From Emiliania huxleyi CCMP1516 (Eukaryota), in the NCBI RefSeq assembly GCF_000372725.1, contig NW_005201391.1:1-49568 (forward strand): a stretch of DNA of 49,568 nucleotides, written 5' to 3'. A program made the translations under genes and the position numbers. Below are positions 31,598-42,734 of this stretch, one piece after another. Below the pieces are notes generated by a model, which was not told the DNA's origin, searched no databases, and saw only the letters and a program-made list of their open reading frames with translations. Within the stretch, counting starts at the first letter, position 1; each line of letters starts with the position of its first letter.

Positions 31598-34500
31598 TCA
31601 CTTGGCCTCGTACCACGTGGAGGCTGTGTTTGCGTCAACGACCAGATCGACGAGCAGCGAAGGCAAGTTCTCGTCGAAGGGCCGCTCCATGCACGCCACC
31701 ACCTCGGCGCGCGCCTCGTCCGCGAGCTCCGCCGGCCCCTCGAACATCACCTCGTCGTGCACCTGCAGCAGGTTGCGGAAGCCCATCTCGCGCAGCTTCT
31801 CGGACCGCTGCAGCTTGATCATTGCGAGCGTCATGATGTCCGCCGCGCCGCCCTGGATGGGCGTGTTGATCGCGGCTCGCTCCATGTGCGCGCGCACGGC
31901 GCCGTTCCGCCCCTGGATGCCGGGCAGCGTGCGGTAGCGGCCGAGGAGGGTGCGCGTGGCGCCCGTCGCTCGCGCCGACGCGATGGTGTCCTTCTGCCAC
32001 TGCAGCACCTCGGGCCGGTCCGCGTACCAGGCGCGCAGCATCTCCTTCGCCTCGTCGATCGAGACGCCCCAGTCCTTGGACAAGCCGTGCGCCGTCTTGC
32101 CGTACGCGATCGAGAAGTTGAGCGTCTTCGCGCGCCTCCGCTCCGACCCAAAGAGGTCCTTGAGCAGCGGCGCGGGAGGCTCGCCCTGCGAGTAGTCCCA
32201 GTCGAGCAGGCAGGTGCCGTCCTCCACGGCGCGGCGAACGTGGTCGAACATCCCCATCGCGGTGCGCGAGTGGAAGTCGCCCCCGAGCTTGAAGGCCTCG
32301 ACCATCGAGGTGCACGCCGTCATGTGTGCGAGCAGCCGCAGCTCGAGCTGGCCGTAGTCTGCGACGACGAGGGCCTTGCCGGGGGCGGCGACGAAGGCGT
32401 CTCGGATGAGGTACTTGTCTTTCTCGAGCGCAGGCTGGTTCTGCAGGTTGGGGGTGCGGCTCGACAGGCGGCCGGTCTCGGTGTTGAGGTTGAGCGAGCA
32501 GTGGATGCGCGACGTGCCGTCGGCCAAGTCTTGCAGCGGAAGGATGAAGTTGGAGAGCATCGTGTCGATGGCGCCCATCTGGCAGAGCGCCTCGAGCGCA
32601 CGGCACGCCTCCTCGCCGACCTCGCCCCCGCCGAACGCACCATACGCCGACCCGAACACGGGAGGGTCCTCGGACGGCCTGCCGGCGAGATGGCCCGAGA
32701 TGGCCCGAGATGGCCCGAGATGGCCCGAGATGGCCCGAGATGGCCCGAGATGATCCGAGATGACCCGAGATGATCCGAGATGGCCCGAGATGTGCGGTGC
32801 GCGTGCGGCTTCCCGGACCTGCCCGCCAGCTCGCGCAGTGCGGCCGCGTCTGTCGCCGGCCAACCGCTCTTGGTGGTCTTAGCGTGCTCGAGCTGGAGGG
32901 AGGAGAGCTCGAACTCGACCTCCTTCCGGCCGCTGTCCACGATGACGCCCTCCAAGGACACGCCTCCAGCCTCCACCACCGCCGCCGTCGCTGCCGCCGC
33001 CGCCTCGCGCGCCGCCGCAGCCGTCGGCGCCGCCGCAGCCGTCGGCGCCGCCGCCGCCGCAACCGGCGCGGCGGGCGCGGCCGCGGGAGAAGTGGTCTCC
33101 GCTGCCGGCGTCGACGGGCGCGGTCCCACCGCCTCGCTGGTCGACACCGCCTCGCTGAGCCTCTGCCGCAAGTCCGCCTTGAGCCGGAGCCCCTTGCGAG
33201 AGACGCCGCGCGCGTCGAGCTCCTCCTTGAGCTCGGACACCTTAAGCTTGCCCAGCCGCTCCCCAGTCAGCGCCGCACCGCCGCCGCCGCCCGCCGCACG
33301 CACCGCCTCCTCCTCCGCCGCCCGCCCCACCCCCGCCGCCGCCGCAAGCCCCGCCGTTGCCCCCGCCGCCGCCTCCCTCGCCGCCGCCTCCCTCGCCGCC
33401 GCGCCCGCCTCCGCACCGTGCGCGTGGCCGGTCGCGCGCAGCCTCGCCACGTGGAGCTCCTATTCACAACCCTCCCCCGATGCTGGCTCTCGTGCTTTCT
33501 TGTCTTCCGCCCTGGCCGCGCGGAGCTCCTCAAAGGCAGCTCGCTCCAGCTTGAACGTGCGCCGCAGCGGCAGCACCTCGGCCGAATTTCGCCTTGTCGC
33601 GCCGCCGAAGAGCAGGGTCTGCACCTGCGTGGCGAATAGTATGGGGAGATGTGGGGAGATGCGGGGAGATGTGGGAGATGTGGGGAGATGTGGGGAGATA
33701 TGAGCCGCCGGAGAGCAGGGTCGCACCTGCGTGCCCGAGCCGACGTTCATGTACCACGCTGCCTCAGTGTACCTCGCCGCCCACTTGCGAAACGTCAGCT
33801 CCGCCGCGTCGCGGTCGGCCTGGGCGCGCGTCTGCGCCAGCGGCAGCTTGGACCGCACGTCCACCATCACTCCGGCGCGCTCCATGTCGGTGAGCAGCTC
33901 GCCTGGGAGGGGGAGAGGCGCAGAGACGGCTCCGAGCCTCGGCTCCGAGGCGGCGGTGTGGGAAGCTCGGTGGGAAACTCGCCGAACGGCCGCCAATACT
34001 CGGTGTAAAAGTCGAAGAGCGAGCGAGTGCGCAGCCACTCCATGCGCGAGAGGCGCGCCTACGGGCAAGGGGCCCAGAGAAGGCTGCCCGCAAGGCTGCC
34101 CGCAAGGCCCGCTCCGAGCGGCGAGAGTGCGCGCGCCTCGAGCTCGCGGTAGAGCAGCCACGTGCCTAGGTCTCGTGCCCTCAGCTGTGAGACCTCTCTC
34201 CGCATCAAGACCTGCCGCTCGAGCGGCGGCGCGCCCTTGGCGTCGTACACGGCGTACTGCACCCAGTCCGGCCGCGTCAGCGGGGACGCCTAGGACATAT
34301 GGGGAGATCTGGGGAGATCTGGGGAGATCTGGGGAGATCTGGGGGCCAGTCCGGCCGCGTCAGCGGCGACGCCTGCAGCGAGTCGAGCGGCGGCAGCTCG
34401 ATGATCTTGCCCGGCGTGCCGTCCTTGCGCAGCTTTGGCTCGCCGAAGATCTCCTTCATCGACACCTTTGCCACGCCGACCAGCTCTTCGGTCAGCGGCA

Positions 34501-35383
34501 GGGACTCAACTCATACATGAATGGTTCACTGCCTCACCTTTGCCCGGCCGACCAGCTCTTCGGTCAGCGCGGCGAGCGAGTAGCCCGCGAGGCGGGACGC
34601 GTCCCACAGCCGCGCCATGTGCATCGTGTCGCCTCCGAAGCCGACGACGTCGACGCCGTGGTTGTACAGCACGTGCCTGTCAAAGCCATAGTTGTGCCAG
34701 ACCTTGAGCGCAGACTCACGCTCAAGCCAGGGCTTGAAGGCCTCGAGCACGCCCGGCTCGGTCGTGTCGACGAAGAGGGCCTTCCCGGGCCCCGAGCCGA
34801 CGTCCAGGTCGGGCCCCGAGTAGACGGTGATGCAGAGCACCCTCCCCTGCCCGAGCGGCGAGCGGCCGAGGTCGAGGTCCGCCACCTCGGTGTCGCAGGC
34901 GTGGATCAGCTCGTCGCGAGCACACAGGAGGGCGGCGACGCGGCGCGCCTCGGCGGCGTCGCTCACCTCGTGCACGCCGACCTCCTCCTGGTCGTGGAAC
35001 CCCGGCGTGAAGTCGCCCACCGGACGAGCACGAGCCGCCTCAGCCGCCGGCGAGGCGGCGGCGGCGGCAGTCTCGCGTGCGGCTGCGGCGAGGCGAGCAC
35101 CAGCGCCGTCAGTCACGCTGGAGGCGTCACTGGAGGCGCGTGCCTCGCGCGATAGCCCGCTCCACCCGACGTCGTTCGCACCCCTCGCCGTGGCCGCGGC
35201 GCTGGAGAGCCACCTGCCGTCCTCGGCTATCGCCCACGTGCGGCGCGCGCTCGCCGCCAGCCGCGAAGTGCGCGGCCGCGCGGCTCGCCCGACGAGAGCT
35301 AGGCCGCGCCAAGCGAGTCCAGGAGTCATCAGCAAGCACAAGAGGAGGGAGGTCGCTCGCAACACGAGGCCCCGGCTCGCCAT
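31598..35383 (-). CDS. POP: Family A organellar DNA polymerase (POP type) with 3'-5' exonuclease domain
   Basis: HACDTEV, KVWHNYGFDRHV, DTMHMARLWD, NTETGRLSSRTPNLQNQPALEKD, ADYGQLELR, RRRAKTLNFSIAYG, NTPIQGGAAD, LQVHDE. Confidence 0.95.
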
Positions 35384-36290
35384 GATGGCATTTTCCACGA
35401 AAGAAAGAAAATATACGTTGCACCAAGTGCTACGAGACCAGAACAAGGCGCTCTACCGGGGCCTGCTGTGCTACTGTACGGCTTAGGCGAAATGTTCCTC
35501 GCTGCGGCGCAAGACGAGGGCACCTTCGGCGAGTTCCCGTTCGAGGTGGCAGCGGCGGCGACCGCCCGGCTGCTCAAGCCTCAAGGTCAAGCACCACACG
35601 CGCTCCGGCGCGTGGGTCGAGATCACGCCGGGCAGCCCTAGCCAGGCCTCACGCGCTGGCCGCGACCGCGACCGCGGCTCTCGCTTGAGCCCGAACTGCC
35701 CCGTCAGACATGTCGGAATTGTCGGAGAAAGCGACTAGCACACCTCTGTCAAGAGTCCCCAGAAACCCCCCTTCTCTGTGTTCGTGCGTCGCCCATCTCT
35801 ATTAAAATGAACTCGGGGGCACACGGGCGTGACGCGGCACGAACGGGGCACCCATCTCTCCTGGAGATGCCTGCTCTATTTATTTAGGGCAGGAGGATTT
35901 GGACGGACGGAAAAACACCCCCCTCTTATGCCTGACCCTGGCCATGGCCTCTCTGGGGGTGAGCTGGGCCGGCCGCCTCCGGGTCCGCCACTCGCACGGT
36001 GGGCTCGCGTCCGGGAGAGCATCCGAGACCCGCGGTTGTCCGCTCGCTGGGCGCGACCTACATGGAAATCCACTGCACACAGATCTGTGCTTTTGGCGCC
36101 TATTGCTCGCTCTCTGTGCAATCGCAACGCCAGAGGCCGTGCTTGGAGAGTGTGTCGCAGTGCTGCTACGTCAGTGGATTGAGCCGCGACGCAGGCTCCA
36201 TCGGTGAGCTGCGGCGGCGCACCGGCCGCTCCATGCATGCTCTCCGGCGAGCCGTCGCAAACGCGTTTCCGTCCGCCCGTTTCATCGAGT

Positions 36291-36420: not shown

Positions 36421-38025
36421 TGCGGGGAAAAAACGAAAATCGAGACGGACTTCTTGAACGGCCGGGCGACATGTCTTCCCTACTATTATTAATTGATGCT
36501 CTTTGCACGGCTGAGCCCCCCCCCCCCTCCCCCGCGCCCACTCCCTGCCCTCTCCCGCCACGCACTCCGTCAGAGCCCCCTCCCCTCTTGCACAACAGGA
36601 ATTTTGACAATTAACAAGATGGACCGATGAGAACGATGGGCTTGCCCATCCCGGAGTGGTTCGATCCCACATGAATCCGAGACGGTGACGGGTGCGTCTC
36701 GGTGATCTCAGGCCCAGTGAGGTAGTGCATCAGACTATCCCGGATCCTGCTGACCAAGCTCCTCTTGTAGCTCGATCGGTCACACCGCCATCGCCGTCGG
36801 GGAGAGGGGGGACGACACTGCTTCGGCAGCGTGCACCTCGATCCTGTACCGTGTTTGTTATGACCCCCCCAATGAACATACCAGTGAGGGAGGGCGAGAC
36901 GATCGAGGGGTCCCGTACCACGCGGAATCGGCCCTATCCAGTGCTCAAGTGCTCAAGGGCAGTGGTGCTGTTCCGCCAGTGTGAAGGGCTGGGTCCCGGG
37001 GTTGTGTTTTTGCGTGACTGTCTCTATCACATCGGAGCGAGGATGAGGTGCTGGCGCACATCCCAAGAAGCCCAACGGGATGTGCCCGCTCCACTATATG
37101 CCGCGCATTACACCACGTCAAAGGCGGTCGTCGATGCGATGCAGGTTCGGAATACATGACCCGGAGGGGCGCTGCAGGCGAAGAACAACTATGGCGAGAC
37201 GCCTGGGGTGCGCGTTCTCCCAACCTCTTCGTCCGCGAGCTCTCAAGCCTCCGCCCCGTTCACTTTTTGTTATTCACAGGACATGGCGCAGAGCCAAGAG
37301 CAAATCGGCCGACGTGAAGGCGGTCTTCGCTTCTGCCGACCGCGACGGAGGCGCCGGCAGCAAGGCGCGAAAGGAGCGACGCGACAGCGGGAGATCGACT
37401 GGCAGTCTCTCCGACCGTGGACGCCTCGGAAGGCGCGGGAGCGTTGGCGACCAGGCCGTTGCGCACGCCATCACCTCCTCTCGTTCAAGCTTTGCTGGCG
37501 GCTCGAGACGATGGTCGTTCGACAGCCAGAGCAGTTGGCGCAGCTTTCGGAGGAAGGGGAGAAGATCGGCTACGAGGGAGCGACCGCTATCTCGCGGGCG
37601 AATCATCGCACCTACCCTTCACGTCCTCCCGCGAGATGTGAGGCGCACGAACACAGCTGTGAGCCCCTGCCGCATGCACAGCTACTCGAAATTGAGCTCG
37701 CGGATGCGCTCTCGAAGATTGCAAGCCTGGAGGCCAAGTTTGCGAGCCTTGAGGCCAAGGTCAACGGGGCGGCCTGAGTCCCAGTGCCCCGCGCCCCGCA
37801 GACGGCTGCCCCCCCCCCCCCCCGCCACCGCCACTTTTCGATCCGTCAAACTTGTGAGTGCGCGGGCTGTGAAATTCTTTTGGGGACGCATCCGACAGAC
37901 CACACCTCCGCGCCGCGCGCGGTGTCCAGAGTCCGAGACTGTCGTGTTCTTCGACTTCTTCCATCCTATAAGCCGTATCTATCTGCGAGATGGAACATAT
38001 TCTACGTATGCACATGCGCTAGAAC

Positions 38026-40257
38026 CTAGATGAACTTCCCCTGCATAATTAGCATCGTGCTCACCACGATGACATAGCTGGGCACGACTATTCGACGGCC
38101 GACCCAGTCGAAGTCGATGTCCGCAGGCGGCTCCTCCGCTGCTTCCGCCAGACTCTCCGGCGACGGGCGTCGCTTCCGGAGAGAGAGCGCGGGCCCAACC
38201 CCGGCACTTGCACGCGCAGCCGCGAGCAGGTCGCTGGGCCCGCCGGTCTCGCGTCGCCTGGGAACGCCGTCGCGCTGCCCGCTCGGCTCCTCCTCGTCCG
38301 CCCCCTCGCGCTCCCTAAAATAGGGCTGGCCCTGCCCATTGCGCTCCCCCTGGCTGGTACTGCGCTCGATCCTCCGCATGCGGACGCGCCCGCGCCTCCA
38401 GCTTCTCCCTGCTCTCTGGATCCGCCGAGAAATGCTGCCGTTGAAGTCGAGGAAGCTGAAGAAGCACACTAGCGCCTGGTAGCTGACGTTGATTGTCATA
38501 AAGAGCTCGCTCCAGGTCACGTCGGACGTGTCTGGCATATCGACCGACACGCGCAGGGCGAGCGTGCAGAGCAGCGCCGTGACACCGAGGGCGATCGAAT
38601 CCCCCGGCGCCGGGATCCAAAAGGCGATGAACCCCACTAGATTGAGTAGAATTGCCGGCACGATGAGGCGGAGCCACATCTTGAACGAGTGCCTCGTGAA
38701 GTGTAGCTTGTACAAAACGACATCGCGCCGCTCGTCGGCGTCGAGCGCTGTCGAGAACGATGCGTAGAAATTCGGATCCTCGTGGACCACATCGAAGCCG
38801 AGGCCGCCGTCCATGGAGACGGCAAGGTTGCTCACGGCGAGAGAGGCGGCGCAATCGTACTCGTCGAACGGGAAATGGCTGATGCCCTTCTCCGTGTGGC
38901 AGAGAAAAGTCGAGCGGAGGTAGTGCTCGACGGAAACCCGTCCTGACGGCATGACGACCGCTGGCACGCTCGAGAGCGTGTTGCGCGAATACTCGTTGAG
39001 GAAGAGGAACGGAGGCATCCAGATCTGGTCAAGCTGCAGCTCGATCGGGTCGGCGTGCTTGCGCATCGCCCACTCGAGCCGCGGGTCGACCCAAGAGAGG
39101 TGCAACCAGTAAACGAGCTCAAAGGTGCCGTCAAAGGGCGTGAAGTGCGTCACGCTCACGTTGCGGAGGCCGGTCTCGACGGACGTCCTTCCGACCGGCG
39201 GCACGCGAGGGTCATAGCTGCTCATCTGCTCTTCGAGCAGCAAACCGACGGGGTCGCTCGAGACGGTCGACGCGCTCGACCAGGACACGTCTACCGTCGC
39301 GCCTTCAACGTCAAACTCCGCCGCCACTGCGGCCGTCGAGCTGAGCCCTATATCCTGCACGGTTTGCACGAGCTGCTGCAGCGTGCGCCACATCCCCAGG
39401 TTGGGGTAGAAGACCATCTGGTCGACCGTCACGAGGATCTTGCGCGCCGATACGAGGTCTGGGAAGCTATTGTCCCAGCCGGTGGTGCCGAGCATGCTGT
39501 ACTCCTCCTCTTGCAGCGTTTGCCTCGCCGCAGACAGCAGCGCGCGAGCGCTGTCGTCGTTGGGCGCGAGGATCACCTCCGGCAGCGGCTTGCTGGCAAA
39601 GTAAGGGGCCACTGCCTGGGTGGCGCCCTCCACGCTCGCGGAGATCGACCAGAGATCGCTGTATCCGACAGGACACGCCTCGGCAAAGCCAGCGAGGGTC
39701 GAGTCCACACGAAAGTCGAGGTCGGACCGGCCGGTGAGGTAGAACCTGGCCACCCTCAGACGGGTGGCTCCTCCCTTGAGCCGGCAGAGCTCGCGGCCCA
39801 AGGCGGCGCCTGCGTCGGGAGAAGCGGCGCCCTCGGGAGAGGCGTGCACGTACAGCACGTCGGCGGCGGCCAGGCTGTGCCTCGTGAGGTTGAGTCCCGA
39901 GCCGAAGGCTTCAATCGCCGCAACGCCGGTGCGCAGCATGTTGACGAGCGCATCCTCTGCTGCGCCGCCCGCGGGCACCGCGCCCGAGATGACGAGCGTC
40001 TGCCTCGGGCTGTCTGCGGCGGCGGCCGTGGCGTCACGCAGCGCCTTTTCGTGGAAAGCGTCGGAGTACTCTGCAAACTGGCCGGCATCGTAGGGCGAGC
40101 AGAGATGCTGGGAGCCCGGGAAGGACGCGACGCCCGCGGCGGCGAACTTGCTGTACCAACTGTCTGGGTCACCGCAGCGGCCGCCGATGAGGAGAATGCG
40201 AGTGAAATTGAGGACGGTTGCGCGCTCTGAGCTCGCACGACGGCGCGGTGCGTCCAT
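38026..40257 (-). CDS. Pentameric ligand-gated ion channel subunit with N-terminal type I periplasmic-binding-protein domain; intronless
   Basis: PBP-I: VILAPNDDSA, TTGWD, VTVDQ. Channel LBD: YDPRVPP, W.DPRLEW, IWMP, FPFD. Four TM helices, with M1 LIVPAILL and M2 GDSIALGVTALL. Confidence 0.92.
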   Translation of the reverse strand: MDAPRRRASSERATVLNFTRILLIGGRCGDPDSWYSKFAAAGVASFPGSQHLCSPYDAGQFAEYSDAFHEKALRDATAAAADSPRQTLVISGAVPAGGAAEDALVNMLRTGVAAIEAFGSGLNLTRHSLAAADVLYVHASPEGAASPDAGAALGRELCRLKGGATRLRVARFYLTGRSDLDFRVDSTLAGFAEACPVGYSDLWSISASVEGATQAVAPYFASKPLPEVILAPNDDSARALLSAARQTLQEEEYSMLGTTGWDNSFPDLVSARKILVTVDQMVFYPNLGMWRTLQQLVQTVQDIGLSSTAAVAAEFDVEGATVDVSWSSASTVSSDPVGLLLEEQMSSYDPRVPPVGRTSVETGLRNVSVTHFTPFDGTFELVYWLHLSWVDPRLEWAMRKHADPIELQLDQIWMPPFLFLNEYSRNTLSSVPAVVMPSGRVSVEHYLRSTFLCHTEKGISHFPFDEYDCAASLAVSNLAVSMDGGLGFDVVHEDPNFYASFSTALDADERRDVVLYKLHFTRHSFKMWLRLIVPAILLNLVGFIAFWIPAPGDSIALGVTALLCTLALRVSVDMPDTSDVTWSELFMTINVSYQALVCFFSFLDFNGSISRRIQRAGRSWRRGRVRMRRIERSTSQGERNGQGQPYFREREGADEEEPSGQRDGVPRRRETGGPSDLLAAARASAGVGPALSLRKRRPSPESLAEAAEEPPADIDFDWVGRRIVVPSYVIVVSTMLIMQGKFI

Positions 40258-40389
40258 TGAGGAGAATGACGAGTTCGAGGGGCGAGGGGGGCGGCCACGC
40301 GAGCGTCCACCCCGGTTCCGTCGTACGAACCGTCCCTTGGATGCGCAAAGGTAATATTTTCGCATATGCGGCGGGCTCTCTCTCGAGGT

Positions 40390-40415
40390 GGCTCGCCGTT
40401 TTCTTTATTTATTTA
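40390..40415 (+). mobile_element. 26-bp insertion with (TTTA)n tail and 9-bp TSD
   Basis: TCTCGAGGT at 40381-40389 and 40416-40424. Confidence 0.6.
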
Positions 40416-40946
40416 TCTCGAGGTCTCGAGAATAAAACCACAAGCAAACGCGTTTTTTGTTGTCGCTTGGTCTGTGATCTCTCAATATGTTTAAATAATG
40501 GAGCCGGTTAAAGCCTGCACAAAGACCGCAGGGCGGGGACCTGTTCCTTTTTACCCATCTCCTAGTAGAGGTGTCCGTTTTATTTATTTACGGTTACTGA
40601 CGATATGGCCTTGTGCGAAATTATGCCTAATTTTTCTTTTTTGTCTTGCCACTTGCGGCTTGAGACTTGTGCTGTTATGTATATGTAATGTTTTGTTCGT
40701 CGTACGCGCGTCCCGATCATCTCGTGACGTGCGGCATGGGTCGGACAATGTGCTGATCACTCGAGGCACGCCGGCTCTCTGCGGGTGGACTGAGAGCGGG
40801 CCCGCTCGAGGGCTTGCCGTGCCGACCTCCACCAGCCGGGGGACCTCCGGCCGGGGAGCCTTCGCGCGCCTCCCGCCTGGAGAGCGGCGTGCTTGCGCAG
40901 ACTTGCGCGCTTCGGCCCAGTGCGGGGGCGCTCCGGTGCGCCGCGC

Positions 40947-42006
40947 TTACCACTGGCGCCCGCCGCCGCCGCCGCCGTAGAAGCCGCCGCCGCCACCCTG
41001 GGCGCCGTAGCCGCCGCCGTAGCCGCCGGGCGCGCCGCCGCCGTACCCGCCGCCGCCGCCGTAGCCGCCGCCGCCGCCGTACCCGCCGCCTNNNNNNNNN
41101 NNNNNNNNNNNNNNNNNNNNNNNNNNNNNNNNNNNNNNNNNNNNNNNNNNNNNNNNNNNNNNNNNNNNNNNNNNNNNNNNNNNNNNNNNNNCCCTTGATC
41201 ATTGGGGAAACTTTTATGAAAGGCGAAAGTTTTACTGGACCAGTCGCGGCAGATTCGATTGCAGTGTTACCAGTCGGGAAGACGAGCGGACACGGACCGG
41301 CGGAAAAGCGTGTAAGGCGGCTCACCGGGGCGCACCAGGGACAGCCCGGGTCAGCGGCGGCGCGAAGAGGAAGGAGGTGGCGAGGGAGGGGGCGGCGATG
41401 AGGGCGGCGGCGGCGAGGGAAGGGGGCGGTGGTGGGGGCGGAAAAGGAGATGGCGGCGGTGGCGGTGAGGGTGGCGGCGGGGACGGCGGCGGCGGAGGCG
41501 ATGTGGCGGCGGGGACAGCGAACCTTCTTGTCATCCCACTCCTTCACGAAATGGACCGCGCTGCCTTGGGCGAGCGCGTTGCCGTCGCTGATCTGCGAGA
41601 AGTGGCAGAAGAGGTCCTCCCCGCCGTCGTCGGGCGCGATGAAGCCGAAGCCCTTCTCACCGTTCCACCGCACCACCTTGCCCTGGATCATGCCCTCTGG
41701 CGGCGGGCCCGAAACGCCGCCGCCGCCGCCGCCGCCGCCGAGTGCATCCTCCTCGCCGCCGGTGACTTGCTCGGCGCGCTCCTTGCCCTTGCGCTCGTCG
41801 TACACCTTGACAAACTGCACCTGGGCGCCCTCCCGCAGCATGTTGCCGTCGAGGATGGACGAGTAGTGGCAGAAGAGGTCGCCGCCGCCGTCGTCGGGCT
41901 TGATGAAGCCGAAGCCCTTGTAGTTCCAGCGGAGGGCCGTGCCGGTTCCCCGCGGGCCGGCGTCGCCCGCGCCGGCGTCGCCCGTCATCGCCGCGTCGCC
42001 CATCAT
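40947..42006 (-). CDS. Cold-shock-domain protein (two CSDs, Gly/Tyr-rich tail); spans a gap
   Basis: KGFGFIKPDDGGGDLFCHYS and KGFGFIAPDDGGEDLFCHFS. Tail GGYGGG..GGRQW* ends at 40947. Confidence 0.92.
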
Positions 42007-42734
42007 TGCGCGGAGCTGCTGTCTCCACGATGAGCGGAGGTCCCTCTGAGCACAGAGAGCCCGACAATTTTTTTTTTACCAACTCGTGCAGAAATACCGC
42101 ACCAACGTCGCGGGTTCGCCGCTGCTTGCGCCGCTGCTGCAGGAGGTGCCCCGAGACATGCGCCGTCTCGGCGGACGACTCGGACGCGCCTAGGGTGCCC
42201 ACAGGACCCAAAAAAAGAAAGGAAAAAAGAAATTGGCCATTCCCGATCGCAGCACTTCGTGTTGGATAGTCGAGATATTGAGAGTGTGACTAGGAGGGTG
42301 GGACGCTGGGGATTCTCAAAGGTATCACCGTCCACCTCGGCTTCGCCACACACGCGCCCAACGTCGGCGGCGACATCCAGGAGGAGCTCCGCGCGATCCA
42401 GCGGCGCGACGAGCGGGTGCGTCCACCCCCGCTCTCACCTCCACCCCTCGCACCCGCACCGACCCTCCTTGCCGCGCGCGCTCAGGAGGGCCGGCCCGCC
42501 TTTTCTTTCAAGGAGAATTTTAACATCGCGCGCGACGGCCGGAAGGAGGCGGGGAAGCTCGAGCAGCTCTACGTCAAGCACTGCATGCCTGCCATCTCCC
42601 TCTGGCCGAGCGTCGCGTGGCCCACGTACTCGCACGCCTCGCGCTACATCCACTGGTGGACATGCAAGGAGCTCCGCACCCACCGCCGAATTGTCGGTGG
42701 TCCGTGAATACCTCCCTCACGGAGGAGGACTGCT

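What the first reader, a model, noticed from the sequence alone, without database searches (positions are those of the whole stretch)
38026..40257. Pentameric ligand-gated channel fused to an RbsB-like binding domain, with a lengthened Cys-loop
Seen: an intronless ORF with a PBP-I domain in front of a full channel. The loop CHTEKGISHFPFDEYDC is C-x15-C rather than the animal C-x13-C. M2 aligns to nicotinic receptors with Asp at -1', Thr at 6' and Leu at 9', suggesting cation selectivity. Established: PBP fusions occur in bacterial members, which lack the cysteines. Inference: an algal chemosensor, possibly gated by a sugar or AI-2-like ligand through the extra domain. No clear signal peptide is visible, so a 5' exon may be missing.
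Basis: partly seen in the sequence, partly recalled or inferred. Interest (0 to 1): 0.8.

Follow-up and report, generated by a model that had tools for sequence, protein, structure and literature searches.

The report
Algal sugar-clamshell Cys-loop channel family
An algal gene joins a bacterial-type sugar-binding "clamshell" domain to a nerve-receptor-type ion channel, a design shared by dozens of plankton relatives that likely open their pore in response to a sugar-like molecule, although this copy lacks the export signal its relatives carry and may not work.

Summary
Confirmed: 38026-40257 (-) is one unspliced 743-aa ORF. It joins a type I periplasmic sugar-binding fold (model pLDDT 94; ribose/monosaccharide-binding proteins, Z 20) to a four-helix Cys-loop channel, and transcript-type contigs bridge the junction. 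It is not a one-off: 47 relatives at under 50% identity carry both domains, with named ones in diatoms and a pelagophyte, and both domain trees recover the same subclades. C-x15-C is real but is a subclade trait: spacing runs 12-16 and both cysteines are invariant (48 of 48). The family mostly lacks the loop-B aromatic and keeps several sugar-contact residues, so the clamshell is the likely sensor. An acidic -1' residue suggests cations. This copy simply lacks the signal peptide that 33 of 35 full-length relatives have, so it may be non-functional. Bacterial PBP-I fusions were predicted in 2004, and this channel domain was catalogued in 2016 with extra domains trimmed. I found no paper on the eukaryotic fusion. 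This scan noted the family before in a diatom (e1-7549535).

The parts
38026..40257 (-). Single-exon ORF, 743 aa: PBP-I domain + Cys-loop extracellular domain + M1-M4
   Evidence: the same 743-aa product, nearly identical, in 10 of the 15 listed cluster members and in locus L001
40210..40257 (-). First 16 residues: no signal peptide (best 10-residue hydropathy -0.32; 33 of 35 full-length relatives score 1.8 or more)
40258..40435 (-). Likely 5' untranslated leader: colinear in transcript-type contigs, with frame-breaking indels between strains and an in-frame stop in L001
39292..40212 (-). Type I periplasmic sugar-binding-protein fold (residues 16-322); two conserved Cys pairs (28/53, 158/195); cleft residues W34, Y35, R183, N233, D262, Q280
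   Evidence: mapping to ribose-binding-protein residues inferred
38692..39261 (-). pLGIC extracellular domain (residues 333-522): W-x-P, FPFD Pro-loop, pre-M1 Arg522; no loop-B aromatic, no loop-C Cys-Cys
38851..38901 (-). Cys-loop C453-x15-C469
   Evidence: sequence; family counts
38611..38667 (-). M1 (about 531-549)
38533..38601 (-). M2 and M2-M3 loop: D-1', S0', T6', L9', R15', Pro at 21' instead of the usual 23'
38449..38505 (-). M3 (about 585-603)
38104..38448 (-). Long polar M3-M4 loop (about 115 aa), likely intracellular as in animal Cys-loop receptors
38035..38103 (-). M4 (about 719-741)

Best explanation
This is an unspliced algal gene that joins a sugar-binding-protein-type clamshell domain to a complete Cys-loop channel subunit; in its family the clamshell likely binds a small sugar or polyol outside the cell and would open or tune a pore that is predicted to pass cations, while this copy lacks the signal peptide of its relatives and may not be inserted correctly. 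Shown: ORF, fold, fusion, family, co-inheritance of the two domains, residue patterns, absence of a leader. Inferred: pentamer assembly; extracellular position of the clamshell (signal peptides, conserved Cys pairs and sequons in relatives); ligand class; clamshell closure pulling on the short linker into the N-terminal helix of the channel domain; cation flow and depolarisation or calcium entry as output.
For: Fold: model pLDDT 94, pTM 0.88; best matches are ribose/monosaccharide-binding proteins, Z 20.3, rmsd 3.5 over 263 residues, spanning residues 3-314 of 316; Foldseek E 7e-8; Atlas feature hits are all Peripla_BP_4. Family: 48 of 152 sequences examined hold both domains; named ones are from Seminavis, Entomoneis and Aureococcus; an Atlas cluster of 63 eukaryotic members has the same two domains. 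The two domain trees recover the same 19-row clade (support 100 and 92) and their distances correlate (Spearman 0.64, 0 of 999 permutations). Cleft: R183 kept in 41 of 45, D262 in 31 of 47 (8 more Asn), Q280 in 34 of 46, an aromatic at 34 in 33 of 34; these map by motif and spacing to ribose-binding-protein R141, D215, Q235, F15 (residue list from PMC2630998). Classical site: aromatic near loop B in 8 of 48 family rows against 34 of 43 nicotinic-type rows; Cys-Cys in loop C in 1 of 48. Pore: Asp/Glu at -1' in 38 of 43, Leu 9' in 41 of 43. One transcript: contigs of X1, X2, X4 and X6 bridge the junction, and X1, X2 and X4 splice the neighbour's GT-AG intron 37208-37279.
Against: No ligand, current or structure has been measured for any member. 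N233 (ribose-binding-protein N190) is kept in only 19 of 48 rows and 3 of 20 in the nearest clade; the D89/R90 contacts have no clear equivalent here. Identity to solved binding proteins is only 9-17%, so the ligand may not be a sugar. GLIC and other channels gate without an amine ligand (established knowledge), so a bare classical site does not prove that sensing moved. Jaiteh 2016 warns that the M2 motif alone does not predict selectivity in protists, and the usual basic 0' residue is Ser here. This copy has no signal peptide, its contig depth is low (2-24), and some alleles are frameshifted (P0003, P0162, P0166; +2 nt at 38390 in X3), though these may be assembly errors. One PBP-bearing row (P0080) has an anion-type PAR motif and falls outside the clade in the careful tree.
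Confidence: 0.5

Rival explanations
1. This particular copy is a young pseudogene or a mis-targeted, non-working subunit: it lost its signal peptide after splitting from its sister lineage, and only its relatives are working channels. Compatible with the family-level reading.
For: No leader in any frame within 830 nt upstream; sister sequence L002 (100/96 support) starts with a clear hydrophobic leader; 33 of 35 full-length relatives have one; frameshifted alleles exist; 7 of 12 listed SNPs change a residue, and the excess of silent ones is not significant (p 0.15).
Against: The frame is open over 743 codons in most full-length alleles; 39 of 39 family-conserved columns are intact, against 32 of 42 to 38 of 40 in four comparators (biased, because the family was found with this query); its branch is not long (0.53 against 0.43 for the sister); it is present in RNA-type runs of four studies.
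Confidence: 0.35
2. The clamshell only modulates or scaffolds the channel, as the N-terminal domain of DeCLIC does; the pore is gated by something else (pH, calcium, or a non-amine ligand at the subunit interface).
For: DeCLIC's extra domain is modulatory (PMC12664993 passages); cleft residues are only partly conserved; W384 (loop D) is kept in 33 of 48 rows.
Against: The clamshell has been kept whole, with conserved Arg/Asp/Gln cleft residues, across lineages only 20-40% identical; loops B and C show no conserved ligand-binding residue.
Confidence: 0.25
3. The ligand is AI-2 or another bacterial signal, so the channel eavesdrops on bacteria.
For: LuxP and an AI-2 binding protein share the fold and appear in the lists (Foldseek rank 14; VIA rank 40, Z 16.4).
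Against: They rank 4 Z units below ribose/monosaccharide binders; NCBIfam hits of relatives are RbsB, allose-binding and LacI-type, with no LuxP/LsrB model listed.
Confidence: 0.07
4. Without a signal peptide, M1 acts as the first anchor and the subunit is inserted upside down, with clamshell and 'extracellular' domain in the cytosol, where it senses an internal sugar.
For: Signal loss with an otherwise intact, transcribed frame; basic residues precede M1 and follow M3.
Against: I recall no inverted pLGIC; all six conserved cysteines and three luminal-type sequons (N17, N123, N366) are kept; recent decay explains the data more simply.
Confidence: 0.05

Closest known systems
Protist Cys-loop (Pro-loop) receptors, Jaiteh, Taly & Henin 2016 (PMC4795631)
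   Same: Same superfamily. Letters of this protein's channel domain stand in their S1 alignment, as does the Aureococcus relative F0YFV0/371-842. F/YPxD, pre-M1 Arg, M1 Pro and Leu 9' are present.
   Different: They cut off the regions outside the two signature domains and left domain architecture as future work. The main-text parts I read and the word searches mention no PBP fusion, variable loop spacing or short M2-M3 loop. Their tree could not be viewed.
Bacterial PBP-I::pLGIC fusions, Tasneem et al. 2004/2005 (PMC549065; Magnetospirillum, Bradyrhizobium)
   Same: Same order of domains and the same proposed chemosensory role.
   Different: Those are Cys-less with a short M3-M4 loop; this family is eukaryotic, has invariant loop cysteines, a long M3-M4 loop and a sugar-binding-type (Peripla_BP_4) clamshell. 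Earlier scan notes call the bacterial clamshell Peripla_BP_6/LIVBP type, which would make this an independent fusion; I did not test that.
DeCLIC (solved pLGIC with an extra N-terminal domain)
   Same: An accessory extracellular domain in front of a pentameric channel.
   Different: Its domain is a calcium-stabilised modulatory module, not a PBP (PMC12664993 passages). That paper describes such domains only for prokaryotic pLGICs.
Ribose/monosaccharide ABC binding proteins (RbsB; PDB 2fn9, 4ry9, 5dte)
   Same: Same two-lobed fold (Z about 20) and several cleft residues.
   Different: 9-17% identity, added Cys pairs, no transporter, fused to a channel; D89/R90 contacts unclear.
Ionotropic glutamate receptors (clamshell-gated channels)
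   Same: Works like them if the reading holds: a bacterial-type clamshell controls an ion pore (established knowledge).
   Different: Unrelated tetrameric pore; their agonist domain is type II and their N-terminal domain is LIVBP-like. Not a member.

Membership tests
pLGIC (Pro-loop) superfamily | Beta-sandwich extracellular domain (Neur_chan_LBD) | tested here: met
   60 bits, cut-off 26; PDB hits to nAChR, CRT1, GABA-A and GLIC
pLGIC (Pro-loop) superfamily | F/Y-P-x-D motif and pre-M1 Arg | tested here: met
   F462-P463-F464-D465, R522; definition
pLGIC (Pro-loop) superfamily | Four membrane helices with M1 Pro, M2 Leu 9' and M2-M3 Pro | tested here: met
   the M2-M3 Pro sits at 21' rather than 23' in 27 of 43 family rows
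pLGIC (Pro-loop) superfamily | N-terminal signal peptide placing the large domain outside | tested here: not met
   absent in this copy, present in 33 of 35 full-length relatives by a simple hydropathy rule, not SignalP. This bears on function, not on descent
pLGIC (Pro-loop) superfamily | Pentameric assembly and gated ion flow | not testable with these tools
Canonical Cys-loop receptors | Two cysteines flanking the Pro-loop | tested here: met
   C453 and C469, each 48 of 48 in the family; the disulfide itself is inferred
Canonical Cys-loop receptors | Exactly 13 residues between the cysteines | tested here: not met
   15 here; family x15 26, x13 16, x16 4, x14 1, x12 1 of 48; x14 also occurs in non-fused hits
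Nicotinic / cationic-type Cys-loop clade | G-E-K/R motif before M2 | tested here: not met
   G-D-S here, E-S in the nearest clade, D-R in others
Nicotinic / cationic-type Cys-loop clade | Aromatic box (TrpB, loop-C Tyr, Cys-Cys) | tested here: not met
   definition from PMC4006026 passages
Nicotinic / cationic-type Cys-loop clade | Groups with GEK-type sequences in a tree | tested here: inconclusive
   separated by a 99/98 branch, but the AU test does not reject the union, p 0.074; reference rows are unnamed and were labelled by their M2 motif
Type I periplasmic sugar-binding proteins (Peripla_BP_4 / RbsB-like) | Two-lobed type I fold over the whole domain | tested here: met
Type I periplasmic sugar-binding proteins (Peripla_BP_4 / RbsB-like) | Pfam or NCBIfam score above cut-off | tested here: inconclusive
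   no hit for this copy; 11 of 34 relatives pass Peripla_BP_4; neither relative with an RbsB hit reaches the equivalog cut-off
Type I periplasmic sugar-binding proteins (Peripla_BP_4 / RbsB-like) | Ribose pocket N13, F15, F16, D89, R90, R141, F164, N190, D215, Q235 | tested here: inconclusive
   likely equivalents of F15, F16, R141, N190, D215 and Q235 are present; N13, D89, R90 and F164 are unclear; mapped through relatives, not by superposition
Type I periplasmic sugar-binding proteins (Peripla_BP_4 / RbsB-like) | Binds a monosaccharide | not testable with these tools
   needs a binding assay
Bacterial PBP-I::pLGIC fusions (Tasneem) | Common descent with the bacterial fusions | not tested
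   no bacterial fusion was retrieved: two scans of genome contigs and one of plasmids found no relative at their low sensitivity

The most novel reading that the evidence does not exclude
Diatoms, pelagophytes and haptophytes share an old, undescribed clade of Cys-loop receptors that gave up the neurotransmitter-type binding site and are gated by a borrowed bacterial sugar-binding clamshell: an ionotropic sugar or polyol receptor of phytoplankton, arisen independently of the bacterial fusions, with a rebuilt gating interface (Cys-loop of variable length, M2-M3 loop two residues short) and its own acidic selectivity ring.
Probability: 0.3. Interest if true: 0.85.

Novelty: new variant of a known kind. 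Interest (0 to 1): 0.62.

Why it matters
No biological role was known for any unicellular pLGIC in 2016 (PMC4795631), and extra outer domains are described as a prokaryotic feature (PMC12664993). This family gives a ligand class to test, in eukaryotic proteins that carry signal peptides and should express in oocytes. It would show how a clamshell domain can drive a pentameric gate, a question open since 2004, and that the 13-residue Cys-loop spacing is not a structural requirement. It could also explain how major bloom algae, such as the motile diatom Seminavis with its many copies, sense dissolved sugars. The window's own copy is the weaker test subject, since it lacks a signal peptide.

Tried and rejected
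Single-sequence fold of the N-terminal domain was poor (pLDDT 47) and its fold search gave nothing at E 0.001; replaced by the alignment-based model. Pfam, NCBIfam and PDB sequence searches of this copy's N-terminal domain found no PBP. The word-indexed protein search found only alleles and one relative; the family came from the HMMER search. No relative in prokaryotic genomes or plasmids; these scans need close matches and do not show absence. No whole genome is held for this window, so paralogues in the same organism were not counted; the window itself holds no second copy. Complex prediction (clamshell against channel domain) was not available, so no docking evidence exists either way. Missing 5' exon rejected: no joint or loose end at 40258-40435 in 6 of 7 laid runs (X3's contig has 19 unaligned letters at its upstream end, where strains differ by indels), and no hydrophobic 10-mer in any frame up to the gap at 41092. 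The in-frame ATG at 40365 was rejected as a start: it adds no leader and strain indels throw it out of frame. The idea that the longer Cys-loop compensates for the shorter M2-M3 loop was rejected: x13 members have the short loop too. The M2 'LG(I/V)T' motif was rejected as a sign of anion-type descent: nicotinic-type rows have it as well. An alignment meant to map the cleft directly onto PDB chains was dominated by channel hits. Gaps in contig cover were not used as evidence.

Full report
Observation. The minus strand at 38026-40257 encodes 743 aa without an intron. Residues 340-472 pass Pfam Neur_chan_LBD; four hydrophobic helices follow, with a long polar loop before M4. PDB sequence hits are nicotinic, chemotactile, GABA-A and GLIC chains at E 1e-11 to 1e-7. 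The loop is C453-x15-C469 around FPFD. The DNA is 60-70% GC with spliced neighbours. The organism is probably a haptophyte such as Emiliania huxleyi. This is inferred: the same letters lie near part 114 of a published alignment whose Emiliania entries start near part 112, and the nearest Atlas cluster is mostly haptophyte, with phylum known for only 3 members.

The N-terminal domain. On its own it matches no Pfam, NCBIfam or PDB sequence. With a 51-row alignment it folds at pLDDT 94, pTM 0.88 and matches ribose and monosaccharide ABC binding proteins over its whole length: Z 20.3, rmsd 3.5, 263 aligned; Foldseek E 7e-8. LuxP and an AI-2 binding protein rank lower (rank 14; Z 16.4). Atlas features and structure agree. 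Of 34 relatives scanned, 11 pass Peripla_BP_4; none of the closest clade does.

One gene, one transcript. Fourteen runs in four studies hold the stretch; I laid 7. Contigs of X1 (38270-39796), X2, X4 (39090-40435) and X6 bridge the junction of the two domains. X1, X2 and X4 also splice the neighbour's 72-nt GT-AG intron, so they are RNA libraries in practice, though only X11 and X14 are RNA on record. Contigs give neither strand nor level. No single contig spans the whole ORF in these runs; L001 does.

The missing signal peptide. Six of the 7 runs continue colinearly 58-178 nt upstream of the ATG with no joint. Strains differ there by frame-breaking indels, L001 has an in-frame stop, and no frame up to the gap at 41092 holds a hydrophobic leader. 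So no 5' exon is missing. By a simple hydropathy rule, 33 of 35 full-length relatives have a leader, and so does the sister sequence L002. The loss is specific to this lineage. For decay: some alleles are frameshifted, and 7 of 12 SNPs change a residue (p 0.15 for an excess of silent ones). Against decay: most full-length alleles are open, 39 of 39 family-conserved columns are intact (biased by the query), and the branch is of ordinary length. This is unresolved; I give 0.35 to a non-working copy.

The family. The HMMER search of 50%-identity representatives gave 764 hits and listed 150. Of the 152 sequences examined, 48 hold both domains, counting this one and leaving out two alleles and rows with under 140 channel columns. 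The PBP profile was built from many of these same rows, so the independent evidence is Pfam and the fold. I looked up 30 proteins by name: named members are from Seminavis robusta (4), Entomoneis and Aureococcus; most have no name. Trees of the two domains for 39 rows recover the same 19-row clade and the same terminal groups, with some deeper disagreement (P0055); distance correlation 0.64, 0 of 999 permutations, which kinship alone inflates. In a quick tree of 116 channel domains all PBP rows fall in one unstarred clade of 52 (SH-aLRT 87). In a careful tree of 40 rows, 15 of 16 do (94/93), and a 99/98 branch separates them from nicotinic-type rows. The AU test does not reject joining them to those rows (p 0.074). 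The reference rows are unnamed and were labelled by motif.

Cys-loop and gate. Both cysteines are invariant (48 of 48) while spacing is 15 (26 rows), 13 (16), 16 (4), 14 (1) or 12 (1). On the tree x15 appears in three separate groups, so the length is labile and not special to this gene. The M2-M3 proline sits at 21' in 27 of 43 rows, two places earlier than in the nicotinic-type and other reference rows. Position -1' is Asp or Glu in 38 of 43 rows, 6' Thr in 35, 9' Leu in 41; 0' is Ser in this clade. An acidic -1' favours cations in animal channels, but Jaiteh et al. caution against reading protist selectivity from this motif.

Where the ligand likely binds. An aromatic residue at loop B is found in 8 of 48 family rows against 34 of 43 nicotinic-type rows, and loop C is variable, with Cys-Cys in 1 of 48. 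In the clamshell R183, D262, Q280 and the aromatic at 34 are conserved (41 of 45, 31 of 47, 34 of 46, 33 of 34) and map, through relatives aligned to PDB 5dte and by spacing, to ribose-binding-protein R141, D215, Q235 and F15. N233 is less conserved (19 of 48) and D89/R90 are unclear, so the ligand is likely a sugar or polyol but need not be ribose. Two conserved Cys pairs and sequons fit an extracellular position. Mechanism, inferred: ligand closes the clamshell, a short linker passes the motion to the channel domain, and a cation pore opens. No docking or pentamer model could be run.

What is known. Tasneem et al. (PMC549065; passages read) predicted PBP-I fusions in alphaproteobacteria. Jaiteh et al. 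(PMC4795631; parts 1-5 of 8 of the text, word searches, searches of supplement 1 and all of supplement 3 read; figures and the online tree not seen) catalogued protist Cys-loop receptors, this channel domain included, and trimmed extra domains. A diatom channel survey (PMC11085791) and a brown-algal genome preprint (10.1101/2024.02.19.579948) only count pLGICs in the passages read (their supplements not seen). A 2025 DeCLIC paper treats extra N-terminal domains as prokaryotic (PMC12664993, passages). PMC4006026, PMC2630998 and PMC9874803 were read in passages. Seven searches showed no paper on the eukaryotic fusion or on variable loop spacing; most subscription journals are not in the library. 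Automatic domain annotation already shows both domains on some relatives. This scan noted the same family in a diatom (e1-7549535) and several bacterial fusions or gene pairs; these are unchecked notes and not independent support.

Verdict. A real feature and a new variant of a known kind: an apparently undescribed eukaryotic clade of sugar-clamshell-fused Cys-loop channels, with a clear and cheap experimental test. The window's copy may itself be defective. Interest 0.62; 0.85 if sugar gating through the clamshell is shown (probability about 0.3).

Noticed in passing
window 37160-37777 (+), intron 37208-37279: Convergent neighbour with no Pfam hit and a coiled-coil-like end; a 72-nt GT-AG intron is spliced in X1, X2 and X4. 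A further 78-nt skip (37602-37679, AT..AC ends, no U12 consensus that I recognise) appears only in the two runs of study P3 and may be a strain deletion.
   Followed up: partly
window 37024-38623: One contig of run X3 runs unspliced from the neighbouring gene 600 nt into the 3' end of the channel gene: antisense read-through, pre-mRNA or DNA. It carries a 2-nt insertion at 38390 that matches the frameshift in allele P0162 and would remove M4.
   Followed up: partly
window 40530-40591: A short AT-rich element upstream of the gene recurs in many unrelated contigs at high depth: a dispersed repeat, perhaps a transposon end.
   Followed up: no
window 40947-42075 (-): Protein with two cold-shock domains and a glycine-rich tail, interrupted by an assembly gap at 41092-41191.
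   Followed up: partly
window 33460-35452 (-): Intron-containing gene with a DNA polymerase A 3'-5' exonuclease domain and a transit-peptide-like start, likely an organellar polymerase.
   Followed up: partly
P0080: A PBP-fused Cys-loop channel with an anion-type P-A-R motif that falls outside the main clade in the careful tree: either the ancestral state or a second fusion.
   Followed up: partly
P0014, P0058, P0059, P0060: Family members with further parts: a WW-like segment after the signal peptide (P0014), an IQ-like motif in the tail (P0058), and cysteine-rich N-terminal extensions (P0059, P0060).
   Followed up: no
P0079, P0103, P0105, P0106, P0116, P0126 and others: A separate clade of non-fused channels with C-x14-C loops and a GER motif, so non-13 spacing also occurs outside the fused family.
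   Followed up: no
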